29,828 nt of DNA from Minisyncoccota bacterium (GCA_018609785.1 JAHEOE010000071.1:1-29828); one strand, 5' to 3'. Shown: positions 14,782 to 25,498, numbered from the stretch's first letter. Notes: generated from the letters alone by a model not told the origin. Translations and numbers: made by a program.

Positions 14782-14868
14782 GATATACGGTAGCGGGTAC
14801 GGTTGTGTAAACAGTAGCAAGTAGTGAGTAGCAGGTAGCAAGTAATTAGAATTTGGTATTTTGAATTT
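14782..14868. repeat. Modular repeat: 23-bp unit + 7-nt periodic tract (module E)
   Basis: gatatacggtagcgggtacggtt, then heptamers agtagca/agtagtg/agtagca/ggtagca/agtaatt/agaattt/ggtattt/tgaattt; 14801-14866 matches the reverse complement of 22446-22511 at 61/66, including a 37-bp exact run. Confidence 0.9.
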
Positions 14869-15037
14869 AGAGCCCATCTCAAAATTATTGAAGGTGGAAG
14901 TCTATGAAGGCGACAGAGACGTATTCACTGGCATTTAATGCCTACGGCCTACCATACCCAAAATTCGTTCATACGCTCTGTCGCCTTCATATGGGTATAA
15001 TAGAGGGGATGAAAGAATATTTTTGAGATGGCTTCTA
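14868..15037 (+). mobile_element. MITE-like TIR-hairpin element, copy 1
   Basis: TAgagcccatctcaaaa...ttttgagatggcttcTA ends; internal stem 14903-14924/14971-14991; homologs at 18841, 25323 (inverted) and 17480. Confidence 0.8.
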
Positions 15038-15046
15038 GAAATGGTT

Positions 15047-15586
15047 CTAAAGAACATCTAAATCTCGGAGGACACGTTCATACGTGTTGAGGATTTCTTC
15101 GGCATCCGAGAGAGCAATATGGTATTCGGAACTGTGGACGATTTCGTTGCGAACTTTATGAACGTACCACAGTTGTTCCAGACGAGGAAAGGTTTCTTGA
15201 TCAAGCTGTTTGAGACGCTCTCCCATGGAACTCCCCTCATATCCCCGATCTTTGAGAACATTGTCGACCAATTTGTCCGCTTCGATGATTGCCAGTTGGT
15301 AATGCCCTTCGTCTTCTGTGGTAAGTCGATTGCGAATTTCTTCCCATCGTTTGGTCGTGGCACTTTTGGTTTCGGGCGCTGCCGTACTGCTATCAGAGCG
15401 GGATTGGGGTGGTAAATAAAAAGAGTTCATTTGGCGTCGGTCTTCCAGAAATGATGAGTTACGCAATAACCAAATGATTCCCCCGATAAGCGCAAGGGAG
15501 AATACGGCAGAAATCAGTTTTGCCGCTACAACAAGAACGACAAAAATAGATCGAAGTTCACTGACGAATGTATCTATCCCAGACAT
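15047..15586 (-). CDS. Membrane-anchored hypothetical protein with HEPN-like RxxxxH motif
   Basis: N-terminal hydrophobic segment; helical C-domain AIIEADKLVD...MGERLK...HKVRNEIVH; start overlaps the gatA 3' end by 29 nt. Confidence 0.7.
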   Translation of the reverse strand: MSGIDTFVSELRSIFVVLVVAAKLISAVFSLALIGGIIWLLRNSSFLEDRRQMNSFYLPPQSRSDSSTAAPETKSATTKRWEEIRNRLTTEDEGHYQLAIIEADKLVDNVLKDRGYEGSSMGERLKQLDQETFPRLEQLWYVHKVRNEIVHSSEYHIALSDAEEILNTYERVLRDLDVL

Positions 15587-16994
15587 GGCCGAGTGTTAAG
15601 AGTGTCTGTTCATCAAAGTGATTCCCAATCAGTTGAAAACCGATGGGAAGTGTACTGTCATTCGGATTGGCGGGGATGGACAGAGCCGGGTTTCCCGACA
15701 AATTTACGGCGACAGTGAAAATGTCTTCCAAATACATGGAAAGGGGGTCCGCTTTTGATCCGGCTTGGAAGGCGGTGTGCGGGGTGGTAGGGGTCAGGAT
15801 GACATCTACATCTTTAAATGCGTTTGTAAAGTCCTTACGAACATGTGTCTGCATATGTCGAGCTTGGGCGTAATAAGCATCATAATACCCACCGGAAAGA
15901 ACATAGGTGCCGAGCATGATACGTCGCTTCACTTCTTCTCCGAACCCGGAAGCTCGGGATTTGGTATAAATTTCTTGCAAAGAAGATGCTTCTTCAAATC
16001 GGGATTGACCGTAGCGAATTCCGTCGTAACGAGCCAGATTGCTGCTTACTTCCGCCGGCATGAGAACATAGTAGGCGGGAATGGCGTATTCGGTTGTTGA
16101 AAGAGAGATATCTTTAATGACCGTATTCATCTCGCCGAACGATTCGATGACTGATTCCAAAGCCGCTTGTACTTCCGAACTTAGTCCGTCGCCAAAGTAT
16201 TCCTGCGGAATTCCGATGCGTAGCCCTGCGATATCACCGTTTTGTATTTCGTCAATATTCAGTTCTTGTCGAGAAGATAGAGAGGTCGAAGTAGCATCCA
16301 ATGTATCAGCGCCTTCAATTCCTTGGAGAACATAGGCGGCATCGAGACTGGTATGCGTGAGGGGTCCGATCTGGTCAAGCGAAGAAGCCATGGCAACCAG
16401 GCCGGAACGTGAAACACGTCCGTAAGTGGGTTTAAGACCGGTTACTCCACAGAACGCGGCCGGTTGGCGAATGGAACCACCGGTATCCGATCCTAAAGAA
16501 GCGGGACACATGTCGGCGGCGACACTTGCGGCCGAACCTCCCGAAGAACCGCCCGGAACTCGAGATGTGTCTGCCGGATTACGGGTTTCTTGGAAGGCGG
16601 AATTTTCCGTGGAAGATCCCATTGCAAATTCGTCCAGATTGGTCTTACCGACAATCAGAGCGCCGGCTTGTTTGAGGTTATGAATAACCGTGGCGTCATA
16701 TACCGCTGTGTAAGAGGAAAGGATTTGAGACCCGGCGGTTGTAGGTTTATCTTTTACAAGAATGGCATCTTTAACGCTTACGGGAATACCTTCCAAAAGA
16801 CCGAATGGTTCATTGCGATCTTGTTTGGTATCGAGATCTTTTGCATGAGCGCGCATGTCATCTTCAAATACTGAAAGAAACGCCTGAACTGTCTCGTCTT
16901 GGGAATCAATTTGAGAGATAGTCTTCTCGACCACTTCACTGGGACGAAGCGTTTTTTGGGTATATCCTTCGTGAAGTTCGGCAATCGTAGGCAT
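15558..16994 (-). CDS. gatA: Asp-tRNA(Asn)/Glu-tRNA(Gln) amidotransferase subunit A
   Basis: SVKD, GKTNLDEFAMGSS, PGGSSGGSAA, GSDTGGSIRQPA, YYVLMPAEVSSNLARYDG, GFGEEVKRRIMLG. Confidence 0.97.
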   Translation of the reverse strand: MPTIAELHEGYTQKTLRPSEVVEKTISQIDSQDETVQAFLSVFEDDMRAHAKDLDTKQDRNEPFGLLEGIPVSVKDAILVKDKPTTAGSQILSSYTAVYDATVIHNLKQAGALIVGKTNLDEFAMGSSTENSAFQETRNPADTSRVPGGSSGGSAASVAADMCPASLGSDTGGSIRQPAAFCGVTGLKPTYGRVSRSGLVAMASSLDQIGPLTHTSLDAAYVLQGIEGADTLDATSTSLSSRQELNIDEIQNGDIAGLRIGIPQEYFGDGLSSEVQAALESVIESFGEMNTVIKDISLSTTEYAIPAYYVLMPAEVSSNLARYDGIRYGQSRFEEASSLQEIYTKSRASGFGEEVKRRIMLGTYVLSGGYYDAYYAQARHMQTHVRKDFTNAFKDVDVILTPTTPHTAFQAGSKADPLSMYLEDIFTVAVNLSGNPALSIPANPNDSTLPIGFQLIGNHFDEQTLLTLGHVWDRYIRQ

Positions 16995-24106: not shown

Positions 24107-24116
24107 CAGACAGAAC

Positions 24117-25304
24117 ATGTCTCTTATTGAATCATTAACGTTGGTGCTTACCGGTGGCTGGGAAATTCTCAAGGTTGTCGCCGAACTTTGGTGGATATGG
24201 ATTCCGATATTACTTACGTTGGTGTTTATCAATTTATGGGAAGAATACGTAATAGAGCGTTATATTATCAACAATTGGGAGTGGGTAACGCTAGAAGTGG
24301 CTTTACAGCCGGAAGTGGAAAAGAGCCAGAGAGCTATGGAACAGGTGATTACTGCTATGCACGGAGCTTTTTCTTCAATTGATCTGTGGCAGCATTGGTG
24401 GGACGGAGAAATTCCCGAGCACTTTGGTCTGGAAATTGTTAGCAGAGGAGGAGATGTTCATTTTATTATTCATACGTTACGCGATAACTTGGATTTGGTA
24501 AAAAGCGCGGTGTATAGTCAGTTTCCGGATGTGGAAATCTTTGAGATCGAGGATTACAGTAAAGAATACACCCATGAAGATCTGGAGCGTACGTATGATC
24601 TTTGGGGGACGGATTTTACGTTGGCCAAACAGGAGTCTTACCCCATTCGCACCTATCCGGAGTTTTCCGAAAAAGAAGCTCCCGGCGTAGAAGTTGATCC
24701 GTTGGGACAGATTACGGAAGGCATGGCTTCTCTCGGACCCGGGGAAGAGTTGTGGTTGCAAATCCCCATTCGTCCTTCCGATGATTCTTGGACGAAGAAA
24801 GGGCAAGAGGAAATTGATAGTATTTTGGGGTCTACCGATACCGATGAACAGGGGAACACTTCAGCGGTTCAACGTCTGACTCCGGGGCAGACCGAGCAGA
24901 TTAAAGGAATCGAACGTAAAATTGCGAAAGTGGGGTTTCAGTGTAAATTACGGTTGGTGTACTTAGCTGAAATCGATAAAATGAATAAGTCTCATATCAG
25001 TCCCATTGCGGGAGGAATAGATCAGTTCGGAGATAACACTTTGAATGGGTTCAAACCGGACTCGGCCACAAAGACATCGGTTGATTTATGGCGTAAACAG
25101 AATGTGATTCGGCGTTTTCGCAAGCATATCATGCTTAATAATTATCAAAAGCGAAAGTTAAATAATAATACGTTTCACCTTAACGCAGAGGAATTGGCTA
25201 CGATTTTCCACTTTCCCGGAGAACACGTAACCACAACCGCACTTCATCGAGTACAGTCCAAGAAAACCAGTCCGCCTTCGAGCTTACCCGGTATGGAGGA
25301 GTAG
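24117..25304 (+). CDS. Membrane-anchored hypothetical protein, probable partner of the downstream VirD4/HerA-like ATPase
   Basis: N-terminal hydrophobic segment; FGLEIVS..G.VHF, YSQFPDVEI.EIEDY, YPIRTY.EF, ELATIFHFP; co-oriented with the ATPase. Confidence 0.75.
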   Translation: MSLIESLTLVLTGGWEILKVVAELWWIWIPILLTLVFINLWEEYVIERYIINNWEWVTLEVALQPEVEKSQRAMEQVITAMHGAFSSIDLWQHWWDGEIPEHFGLEIVSRGGDVHFIIHTLRDNLDLVKSAVYSQFPDVEIFEIEDYSKEYTHEDLERTYDLWGTDFTLAKQESYPIRTYPEFSEKEAPGVEVDPLGQITEGMASLGPGEELWLQIPIRPSDDSWTKKGQEEIDSILGSTDTDEQGNTSAVQRLTPGQTEQIKGIERKIAKVGFQCKLRLVYLAEIDKMNKSHISPIAGGIDQFGDNTLNGFKPDSATKTSVDLWRKQNVIRRFRKHIMLNNYQKRKLNNNTFHLNAEELATIFHFPGEHVTTTALHRVQSKKTSPPSSLPGMEE

Positions 25305-25322
25305 AATGCAACTCAAATGTTC

Positions 25323-25498
25323 TAGAGTCCATCTCAAAAATATTCTTTCGGAATATCTATCATACGCATACGCATATGAAGACGACAGAGCGTATGAACG
25401 AATTTTGGGTATGGTAGGCCGTAGGCATTAAATGCCAGTGAATACGTCTCTGTCGCCTTCATATACTTCCACCTTCAATATTTTTGAGATGACCTCTA
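25323..25498 (-). mobile_element. MITE-like TIR-hairpin element, copy 3 (reverse orientation)
   Basis: TAgagtccatctcaaaa...ttttgagatgacctcTA; reverse complement nearly identical to copy 1 across stem and loop; catacg tandem duplication in the flank. Confidence 0.8.

What the first reader, a model, noticed from the sequence alone, without database searches (positions are those of the whole stretch)
14868..25498. Family of ~170-bp TA-flanked TIR elements carrying a long hairpin with compensatory mutations
Seen: copies at 14868-15037, 18841-19008 and 25323-25498 (inverted), plus a divergent copy at 17480-17646. All have ends TAGAR..CATCTCAAAA / TTTTGAGATG..YTCTA and a ~21-bp internal stem around a 40-46-nt loop. 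Copy 2 differs from copy 1 by paired changes on both arms (gcGaCag/ctGtCgc to gcAaTag/ctAtTgc). Copy 3's single stem change (25382) gives a G-U pair only on the strand matching copy 1's plus strand. Inference: pairing is under selection and may be strand-specific (RNA or ssDNA substrate), beyond what a passive MITE needs. TA flanks and GAG..TCTCAAAA ends are reminiscent of IS5/IS1182-type ends (from recall, unverified). No transposase is in the window. Four copies in ~11 kb is striking for a streamlined genome.
Basis: partly seen in the sequence, partly recalled or inferred. Interest (0 to 1): 0.8.

Follow-up and report, generated by a model that had tools for sequence, protein, structure and literature searches.

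The report
Hairpin-carrying IS5-type mini-transposons (MITEs)
The repeats are gene-less hitch-hiker transposons (MITEs) with IS5-type ends that have multiplied to about a hundred copies in a tiny, streamlined bacterial genome; their internal hairpin is kept by compensating mutations, but nothing shows that it works as a strand-specific RNA.

Summary
All four copies sit at the stated coordinates with the stated ends, stem and loop.

**Abundance.** The family has about 78 loci in the 883-kb assembly (41 full length). Two sister families share the same ends. Together they make up 3.6% of the genome and about 23% of its intergenic DNA.

**Ends and origin.**
- The ends (TA|GAR-NNN-ATCTCAAAA) define a superfamily of about 165-bp MITEs in many phyla.
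- In one deltaproteobacterial genome the same end lies 100 bp from an IS5-family (transpos_IS5_3) transposase gene.
- The target is TA within YTAR.
No cognate transposase is assembled in this genome.

**Hairpin.**
- It is real and restricted to this genus.
- Its stem is replaced or compensated between subfamilies. Six of 21 pairs changed on both sides; the covariation score is 0.229 against 0.085 in shuffles.
- The 40-46-nt loop is conserved.
- The core is 5-6 times more conserved than the adjacent spacers.

**Strand specificity is not supported.**
- Orientation relative to genes is random (16 same, 22 opposite).
- The core has flipped repeatedly.
- Arms show compensating indels.

This points to maintenance at the DNA or element level. 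The scan has noted comparable covarying MITE hairpins in other genomes, but none with this sequence.

The parts
14868..15037 (+). Family A MITE, copy 1 (170 bp), between the convergent genes rluD-like (13786-14775) and ORF 15047-15586(-)
   Evidence: fold
14868..14889 (+). Left terminal inverted repeat of copy 1 (TA + GAG-CCC-ATCTCAAAATTATT). Its partner is 15016-15037.
   Evidence: I25, 22 nt, 86% complementary
15016..15037 (+). Right terminal inverted repeat of copy 1
14903..14991 (+). Internal hairpin of copy 1: left arm 14903-14924 (one bulged A), conserved 46-nt loop 14925-14970, right arm 14971-14991
   Evidence: Hit by covariance model R1, which was built from family B only (14902-14992, E 3.7e-6).
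18841..19008 (+). Family A copy 2, in the def-fmt spacer. Two stem pairs are compensated relative to copy 1 (hairpin 18875-18965).
25323..25498 (-). Family A copy 3 (176 bp; a 6-nt repeat expansion in the right spacer). One G·T in the stem (hairpin 25374-25464).
17480..17646 (+). Family B copy. It has the same ends and subterminal flanks, a hairpin with a different stem sequence and a homologous loop, and a core inverted relative to family A (model hit 17513-17598 on the minus strand).
13626..13785 (+). 160-bp member of a third, modular family (family C) bounded by degenerate copies of the same TIR, directly after tRNA-Phe
12835..12851 (+). Solo right-end TIR (TTTTGAGATGGCCTCTA) just after the rplL terminator-like hairpin
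   Evidence: (D3)

Best explanation
These are non-autonomous DNA transposons (MITEs) of IS5-family origin. They are cut and pasted by a DDE transposase of the transpos_IS5_3 type. That enzyme recognises the bipartite ends TA|GAR-NNN-ATCTCAAAA and inserts at TA inside a YTAR target.

They belong to a superfamily found in many bacterial phyla, whose typical member is a complete fold-back palindrome of about 165 bp. In one genus of small-genome (CPR-like) bacteria the superfamily bloomed into several families, and no cognate transposase remains in the assembled DNA.

The internal hairpin is this lineage's version of the fold-back body: a 21-22-bp stem capped by a conserved 40-46-nt insert. I infer that it acts in cis at the DNA level, as a snap-back or cruciform structure that presents the loop. 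Lineages that keep it are then the ones that keep multiplying. Recombination and template switching between the two arms help to keep them complementary and occasionally flip the loop.

Once inserted, individual copies simply decay.

**Shown:** family membership, the ends, the target preference, the IS5 link in other genomes, the covariation, the core conservation, the flips, and the absence of strand or orientation bias.

**Inferred:** that the hairpin and loop promote transposition.
For: **Copy number and structure.** About 78 loci, 41 full length; TIRs and TA on both flanks of all 36 scored copies.

**Target.** YTAR preference: CTAG, TTAG and CTAA make up 26 of 36 copies here and 43 of 63 in public genomes. 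The outer bases do not match between sides, so the duplication is 2 bp, not 4 bp.

**Superfamily.** Genomes such as G041-G045 hold 43-137 matches against 0-1 for the reversed control. Most members are full fold-backs.

**Cognate IS.**
- G042:C50 has a frameshifted transpos_IS5_3 gene 100 bp from an exact TTTTGAGATGACTTCTAG end. That end also shares the genome-specific AAAACCCCT extension with that genome's MITEs.
- The G041:C182 IS is bounded by CTAGGGTGTGTCTGAAAAA / TTTTTCAGACACACTCTAG.

**Hairpin.**
- 6 of 21 pairs changed on both sides; covariation score 0.229 against 0.085 (0 of 500 shuffles); slid controls 0.057 or less.
- The family-A stem is unrelated in sequence to the family-B stem, yet the B-only model finds A hairpins full length on the right strand.
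- Divergence from consensus is 3.4-4.8% in the arms and 3.5% in the loop, against 19-23% in the spacers and 9.5-14% in the TIRs.

**DNA-level signs.**
- Seven flipped cores.
- A compensating AC/GT insertion (C12:3035).
- Bulge filled in C67:305 and C95:6141.
- Chimeras with breakpoints in the loop, C110:814 and C96:1191.
Against: - No transposase with these ends is in this assembly (88% complete) or in the sister genome.
  - The only IS5-like gene (C16:608-1384) is 22% identical to the cognate type.
  - Its ends resemble the MITE ends no more than shuffled sequence does.
- No precise empty site was found. TA could formally be part of the element.
- No experiment or structure shows that a fold-back helps an IS5-type transposase.
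- The slow evolution of the core could reflect something other than selection for transposition.
- The hairpin-plus-loop module was not found in 100 public loci of the superfamily, nor in 15 other genomes of the family. It is therefore not needed for transposition in general.
Confidence: 0.55

Rival explanations
1. The element is an ordinary MITE and the hairpin has no function. The arms stay complementary only because closely spaced inverted repeats correct each other by intramolecular template switching or gene conversion (quasipalindrome correction). The loop looks conserved because the bloom is recent.
For: - Compensating indels and bulge filling.
- Repeated loop flips, which show that the arms do recombine.
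- No G·T over A·C excess and no orientation bias.
- Most arm changes in individual copies are uncompensated: 67 of 987 pairs are mismatched.
- Within family B, arms and loop diverge at similar rates.
Against: - Conversion cannot conserve the unpaired loop. Yet loop and arms are 5-6 times less diverged than the flanking spacers of the same copies.
- The loop is still alignable between families A and B and the sister species, whereas the spacers are not.
- Old copies such as C69:2013 do lose pairing, so in-place correction is weak.
Confidence: 0.25
2. The hairpin is a strand-specific functional RNA (a small RNA, an RNase III or terminator-type cis element, or an RNA used by the element). The MITE spreads it.
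For: - Covarying stem with a conserved loop.
- Very stable folds on either strand.
- A 21-22-bp helix is the size RNase III cuts (established knowledge from Correia elements; not tested here).
Against: - No Rfam family matches, even at E up to 10.
- G·T against A·C is 14:24 on the proposed strand. The reverse trend is not significant.
- Orientation relative to neighbouring genes is 16:22, and the distribution over tandem, convergent and divergent spacers follows the background.
- The core flips relative to the ends.
- Individual copies decay.
- No RNA run holds the locus.
Confidence: 0.1
3. The conserved 40-46-nt 'loop' is itself a tiny separate mobile insert. It lodged in the TAT|ATA tip of pre-existing palindromic MITEs, which is why unrelated stems (A against B) carry the same loop.
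For: - Typical superfamily members have a 3-8-nt tip flanked by GTAT/ATAC-like bases, exactly where the loop sits here.
- The A and B stems are unrelated while their loops are homologous.
- In the sister genome another roughly 130-nt module is inserted inside the loop.
- An earlier scan note describes a similar tip-lodging module in another Patescibacteria genome.
Against: - No loop copy was found outside an A- or B-type stem, apart from recombinants.
- The loop has no clear ends or duplication of its own.
- All subfamilies carry it at the same position, so a single ancestral acquisition suffices.
Confidence: 0.1

Closest known systems
IS5-family insertion sequences of the transpos_IS5_3 (NF033580; IS427/IS1031-like, frameshifted) type and their MITE derivatives
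   Same: - Ends begin GAG after a flanking TA.
- Target is YTAR.
- An element of this type in G042 carries the identical end, and one in G041 carries the same end design.
   Different: No transposase of this type is in this genome or its sister. The nested 21-bp hairpin with a conserved large loop is not a described feature of such MITEs. That the IS427 group duplicates TA is from my recall, not checked here.
Correia repeat-enclosed elements (CREE/NEMIS) of Neisseria
   Same: A TA-flanked, TIR-bounded element of about 100-170 bp in hundreds of copies, making up a few percent of a small genome. It is mostly intergenic, no cognate transposase is known, and the transcripts can fold into long hairpins (established knowledge; also listed as a MITE in PMC3733652).
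   Different: - In Correia elements the hairpin is formed by the TIRs themselves, and functional promoter/IHF/RNase III roles are documented.
- Here a second, inner hairpin with a conserved loop exists, and no RNA role is supported.
- There is no sequence similarity beyond the general TA-G..CAAAA flavour of the ends.
RUP of Streptococcus pneumoniae and other IS630-derived TA MITEs
   Same: TA flanks, small size, TIRs, dispersed intergenic copies.
   Different: No DDE_3 (IS630) transposase is in this genome or in 16 relatives. IS630 copies in MITE-rich public genomes have different ends.
REPIN-RAYT systems and TIRtrons (PMC3733652)
   Same: Hairpin-forming dispersed repeats whose structure, rather than sequence, is conserved; proposed single-strand DNA intermediates.
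   Different: - REPINs lack TA-flanked TIRs and depend on a resident Y1 transposase.
- The only Y1 gene in this assembly lies on a contig 85% identical to E. coli ISEc46, which is probably contamination.
- The sister genome's IS200-like gene has no such ends and no orthologue here.
Quasipalindrome template-switch correction (a mutational mechanism described in E. coli)
   Same: It produces clustered, compensating substitutions and indels that make imperfect inverted repeats more perfect, as seen in several copies.
   Different: It is a mechanism, not an element. It does not explain conservation of the unpaired loop.

Membership tests
[quoted passage not shown] | Terminal inverted repeats of about 15-30 bp | tested here: met
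   22-nt TIRs, 86-91% complementary within copies (I21, I25). 239 TIR matches genome-wide.
[quoted passage not shown] | Small size, no coding capacity, many dispersed copies | tested here: met
   152-177 bp. No ORF of 80 aa or more lies inside the four window copies. About 78 loci on 60+ contigs.
[quoted passage not shown] | Target-site duplication shown by comparison with an empty site | tested here: inconclusive
   TA flanks both sides of all 36 scored copies, within a YTAR context. No precise empty site is available. In the sister genome the rluD/ORF junction has no spacer at all, but at about 70% identity. Logan contigs break at the repeats.
[quoted passage not shown] | A full-length element with the same ends that encodes the transposase | tested here: met
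   Met in other genomes only. G042:C50 has a transpos_IS5_3 gene next to the exact end. The G041:C182 IS has the same end design. Not met in this genome.
IS5 family derivative | YTAR target preference and GAG-type termini | tested here: met
   N1-TA-N4 is CTAG, TTAG or CTAA in 26 of 36 copies here and 43 of 63 public copies. The element starts GAR after TA.
IS630/Tc1-mariner derivative | DDE_3 transposase element carrying the same TIRs | tested here: not met
   No PF13358 match in G000 or in 16 family genomes. IS630 copies in G041, G042 and G044 lack the motif.
REPIN-RAYT / TIRtron | Resident Y1 (HUH) transposase associated with the repeats | tested here: not met
   The only Y1 gene is on the ISEc46-like contig C54. 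The G001 gene is an unrelated IS200-like copy, 34% identical, without these ends.
Structured non-coding RNA | Covariation supporting the helix | tested here: met
   (6 of 21 pairs, 33 cells, 0 of 500 shuffles). However, inverted repeats in DNA give the same signal.
Structured non-coding RNA | Strand asymmetry (G·U tolerated, A·C not) and consistent orientation to transcription | tested here: not met
   14 G·T against 24 A·C distinct mismatches on the proposed strand. Orientation 16 same and 22 opposite. No Rfam match.
Structured non-coding RNA | Transcription of a discrete product | not testable with these tools
   Only four DNA sediment metagenomes hold the locus; there are no RNA runs.

The most novel reading that the evidence does not exclude
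The stem-plus-conserved-loop core is a cis-acting nucleic-acid module. It would act as a snapped-back single strand or cruciform whose tip is read sequence-specifically by the transposase or a host factor, and it would boost mobilisation of IS5-type MITEs. It would be one lineage-specific solution within a pan-bacterial, so far undescribed fold-back MITE superfamily whose palindromy is itself required for transposition.
Probability: 0.25. Interest if true: 0.7.

Novelty: new variant of a known kind. Interest (0 to 1): 0.45.

Why it matters
- **Streamlined genomes are not immune.** An ultra-small, streamlined genome with almost no transposases can still carry a large MITE load: 3.6% of the DNA and nearly a quarter of the intergenic space.
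- **A shared end across phyla.** One short end motif ties together fold-back MITEs from CPR bacteria to Bacteroidota and Myxococcota and links them to one IS5-type transposase. This gives annotators a simple handle for a repeat class that breaks metagenome assemblies. Here many contigs end inside copies.
- **A caution for structure hunting.** Covarying stems inside mobile inverted repeats are not by themselves evidence for a functional RNA.
- **If the core promotes transposition.** It would be a tractable case of structure-dependent DDE transposition.

Tried and rejected
- **Rfam.** Gathering threshold on the window, and E up to 10 on three loci: only tRNAs.
- **tRNA-likeness of the loop.** ARAGORN finds only the two real tRNAs.
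- **IS630 origin.** Rejected.
- **Y1/RAYT or TnpB link.**
  - The G000 genes lie on an Enterobacteriaceae-like ISEc46 contig.
  - The G001 gene is an unrelated IS200 copy.
- **G000's own IS5-like element (C16:522-1361) as the driver.**
  - Its ends are no more similar to the MITE ends than shuffled sequence (p 0.6-0.8).
  - The protein is 22% identical to the cognate type.
- **4-bp YTAR duplication.** Rejected, because the outer bases differ between the two sides in three quarters of copies.
- **Pre-existing palindromic target (TAGAG..CTCTA without insert).** None found.
- **Autonomous element by TIR spacing.** In 115 public loci and in the long-contig genome G045, all long TIR pairs enclose host genes.
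- **Multi-copy protein families in G000.** None is a transposase.
- **Empty sites or excision joints from public reads.** Only Logan contigs are available and they break at the repeats.
- **Other collections.**
  - Plasmids: no match.
  - JGI metagenome contigs: no match to the family-A loop.
- **Literature.** Searches for the end sequence or for CPR MITEs returned nothing relevant.
- **Promoter or IHF-site readings of the loop.** Considered by eye only and not pursued, because no motif was consistent across subfamilies.
- **Taxon name.** Not obtained; one atlas look-up was uninformative.
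Full report
**Observation**

- Copies 1-3 (14868-15037 +, 18841-19008 +, 25323-25498 -) are 88-95% identical to each other.
- Each starts TAGAG-NNN-ATCTCAAAA and ends with the reverse complement.
- Each holds a 22/21-nt stem with one bulged A around a 46-nt loop. In copy 1 the arms are 14903-14924 and 14971-14991, and the loop is 14925-14970.
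- Copy 4 (17480-17646) shares only the ends and about 30 subterminal bases. It has a hairpin of different stem sequence with a 40-nt loop.
- Folding of the whole element as single-stranded DNA pairs the TIRs and the inner arms (z = -5.7). The core folds equally well on both strands (z = -6.3 and -6.6).

**Setting**

The window is contig C71 of an 883-kb, 129-contig, 88%-complete assembly from sediment metagenomes. The gene content is that of a small-genome bacterium:
- Present: ComEC, PilM/FtsA-like, GatCA, def-fmt, aminoacyl-tRNA synthetases.
- No transposase in the 20 window ORFs scanned.
- All relatives in the same class are 0.5-1.2 Mb.

I read this as a CPR/Patescibacteria-type genome by inference. 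I did not obtain a taxon name.

**Abundance and families**

- BLASTN and nhmmer give about 78 loci of family A, 41 of them full length.
- A search for the ends alone gives 239 matches. These cluster into three groups:
  - family A;
  - family B (about 22 loci, including window copy 4);
  - a modular family C (15 or more elements of 160-529 bp built from small hairpin modules, including window 13626-13785).
- Family A covers 1.3% of the assembly, A+B 1.6% and A+B+C 3.6%. The last figure is about 23% of the roughly 137 kb not covered by my crude ORF calls.
- Several contigs begin or end inside copies. Summed contig depth over the element is tens of times the unique depth, so the true number is probably higher.

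**Ends and target**

- All 36 scored full copies have TA outside GAR...YTC on both sides.
- The base before the left TA is C or T in 30 of 36 copies. The base after the right TA is G or A in 33 of 36. The target is therefore YTAR (CTAG, TTAG and CTAA = 26 of 36).
- The outer bases do not match between the two sides, so the duplication, if any, is TA and not 4 bp.
- Positions 5-8 of the TIR are unusually variable in this genome: 14 or more variants among 36 copies, even within subfamilies whose spacers are nearly identical. I leave this unexplained.

**A superfamily across phyla, and its transposase**

My rough expectation by chance is about 20-30.
- Hits come from Bacteroidota, Myxococcota, Desulfobacterota, Gammaproteobacteria, Verrucomicrobiota, Bdellovibrionota, Leptospiraceae and many CPR lineages.
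- Nearly all show the full (C)TAGAR-NN-CATCTCAAAA end and the same YTAR context.
- Five of these genomes hold 43-137 end matches each, against 0-1 for the reversed control.
- Most members are complete fold-back palindromes of about 165 bp. The median is 51 mirrored pairs and the median MFE about -75 kcal/mol. They have a 3-8-nt tip often flanked by GTAT/ATAC-like bases.
- Sequence between the ends and the tip is not conserved between lineages. 'Structure kept, sequence replaced' is therefore a property of the whole superfamily.

Searching 18 such genomes with NCBIfam transpos_IS5_3 gave two informative elements.
- In G042:C50 (a deltaproteobacterial MAG with about 70 MITEs), a frameshifted transposase gene of this type starts 100 bp from an exact TTTTGAGATGACTTCTAG end. 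That end also shares the genome-specific extension AAAACCCCT with the MITEs of that genome. The other end of this IS is cut off by an IS3-like element.
- In G041:C182, a complete 0.9-kb IS of the same type is bounded by CTAGGGTGTGTCTGAAAAA and TTTTTCAGACACACTCTAG, which is the same design with a few changed bases.

DDE_3 genes are absent here and in 16 relatives. Where present in MITE-rich genomes, they have other ends.

**No driver in this genome**

- G000 has one IS5-like gene (C16:608-1384) inside an 840-bp element with 30-nt TIRs.
- It is only 22% identical to the cognate type.
- Its ends match the MITE ends no better than shuffled sequence.
- tblastn with the cognate proteins finds nothing.
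- The sister genome G001 has none.
- The Y1 and TnpB genes found on contig C54 are 85% identical to E. coli ISEc46, so they are probably contamination.

The bloom therefore looks orphaned, or the driver is unassembled.

**The hairpin**

- In G001 (same genus; genes about 70% identical), elements with the same left end carry a hairpin whose loop is homologous to that of family A. Its stem is entirely different and is related to family B.
- Across 18 family-B hairpins, 6 of 21 pairs have changes on both sides (33 cells). 89.7% of cells are paired. The covariation score is 0.229 against 0.085 in shuffles (0 of 500) and 0.057 or less when the partner is slid.
- A covariance model built from family B alone finds family-A hairpins full length on the loop-defined strand (E about 1e-5 to 1e-6). 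It finds matches only in G000 (69) and G001 (19) among 17 genomes of the family, and none in 100 public loci of the superfamily.
- Within family A, divergent copies keep pairing by double substitutions, including a C-G to G-C swap in C67:305 and the path C44:14821 to C88:8566 to window copy 2. One copy has matching two-base insertions on both arms (C12:3035). Two have an insertion that fills the bulge (C67:305, C95:6141).
- Divergence from the family consensus is 3.4-4.8% in the arms and 3.5% in the loop, against 19-23% in the two spacers and 9.5-14% in the TIRs. Within a subfamily the spacers are nearly identical. The spacer divergence therefore lies between propagating lineages, and the core, including the unpaired loop, has changed 5-6 times more slowly along those lineages.

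**Against a strand-specific RNA**

The opposite trend is not significant (about p = 0.14, my binomial estimate).
- Cores lie in 38 tandem, 13 convergent and 11 divergent spacers, in proportion to the background. In tandem spacers they point with the genes 16 times and against them 22 times.
- The core is inverted relative to the asymmetric subterminal flanks in seven family-A copies from at least two subfamilies, and in family B and G001 generally.
- Recombinants with breakpoints inside the loop exist (C110:814, C96:1191).
- Single copies carry on average 1.4 mismatched pairs, close to what the per-site divergence predicts. Inserted copies therefore decay without correction or selection.
- No Rfam family matches and no RNA data exist.

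**Reading**

The elements are IS5-type MITEs.

The inner hairpin is this genus's version of the fold-back body of the superfamily, with a conserved 40-46-nt insert at the tip. The evidence points two ways:
- The unpaired loop is conserved together with the arms, and both evolve much more slowly than the spacers. I therefore favour a cis role in propagation at the DNA level (confidence about 0.5).
- The flips, compensating indels and bulge filling show that the arms template each other. Some or all of the 'covariation' may therefore be mechanical (rival, 0.25).

A host-level or strand-specific RNA role is unlikely (0.1). So is the idea that the loop is an independent tip-lodging insert (0.1).

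**Earlier scan notes**

Earlier notes of this scan describe comparable TA-flanked palindromic MITEs with covarying stems in other genomes. A sequence look-up found none related to this family.
- One note prompted the 2-bp against 4-bp test.
- Another prompted the tip-insert rival.
- A third led me to PMC3733652, whose TIRtron model I tested and rejected here.

**Verdict**

This is a new variant of a known kind. It is of moderate interest, mainly for three reasons:
- the size of the bloom in a streamlined genome;
- the pan-phylum superfamily with a now-identified transposase type;
- the clear demonstration that covariation in a mobile inverted repeat need not mean RNA.

Noticed in passing
window 13626-13785, 17650-17820, 22198-22520; G000 loci listed: A third family (C) uses the same TIRs. 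It is a mosaic of small hairpin modules (for example CCTCCTC-TTTAAAAA-GAGGAGG) and a roughly 100-nt structured-looking unit (GTCGACACGGCAGTCC..GAAAATAGG..hairpin..GTAAAAAAC..hairpin..). Members range from 160 to 529 bp.
   Followed up: partly
L033:1560-1700 (G001:C38): In the sister genome, a roughly 130-nt copy of the family-C structured unit is inserted inside the loop of a family-B hairpin. That unit therefore moves, or recombines, on its own.
   Followed up: no
window 14798-14869 and 22443-22514; many G001 contigs: A purine-rich block (gtagcaagtag..tagaatttggtat..) next to copy 1 is 85-90% identical to many copies in the sister genome, although genes are only about 70% identical. It is another shared intergenic repeat, better conserved than the coding sequence.
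   Followed up: no
TIR positions 5-8 of all family A copies (for example window 14872-14875, 18845-18848): These four bases are hypervariable in this genome: 14 or more variants in 36 copies, differing even between near-identical subfamily members and between the two ends of one copy. In G041, G044 and G045 they are almost always AGCC or AGTC.
   Followed up: partly
G000 contig C54 (L097): The contig carries tnpA and tnpB of an IS605-type element that is 85% identical to E. coli ISEc46. It is probably a mis-binned enterobacterial contig rather than part of this genome.
   Followed up: yes
G000:C16:240-1361 (L036): This region holds the only IS5-like element of the genome (840 bp, 30-nt TIRs, 258-aa transposase). 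It lies next to what looks, by eye, like the C-terminal remnant of an IS1595-type transposase on the other strand.
   Followed up: partly
window 12327-12812(-) and 12334-12765(+): The 161-aa minus-strand ORF is probably spurious. By eye, the plus-strand frame ends like ribosomal protein L7/L12, follows rplJ (11689-12315), and is followed by a hairpin and the solo TIR.
   Followed up: no
Genome-contig loci L104-L218: About 165-bp fold-back MITEs with the ends (C)TAGAR-NN-CATCTCAAAA occur in many phyla, often in 40-130 end copies per genome. I found no paper naming them in the searchable library.
   Followed up: partly
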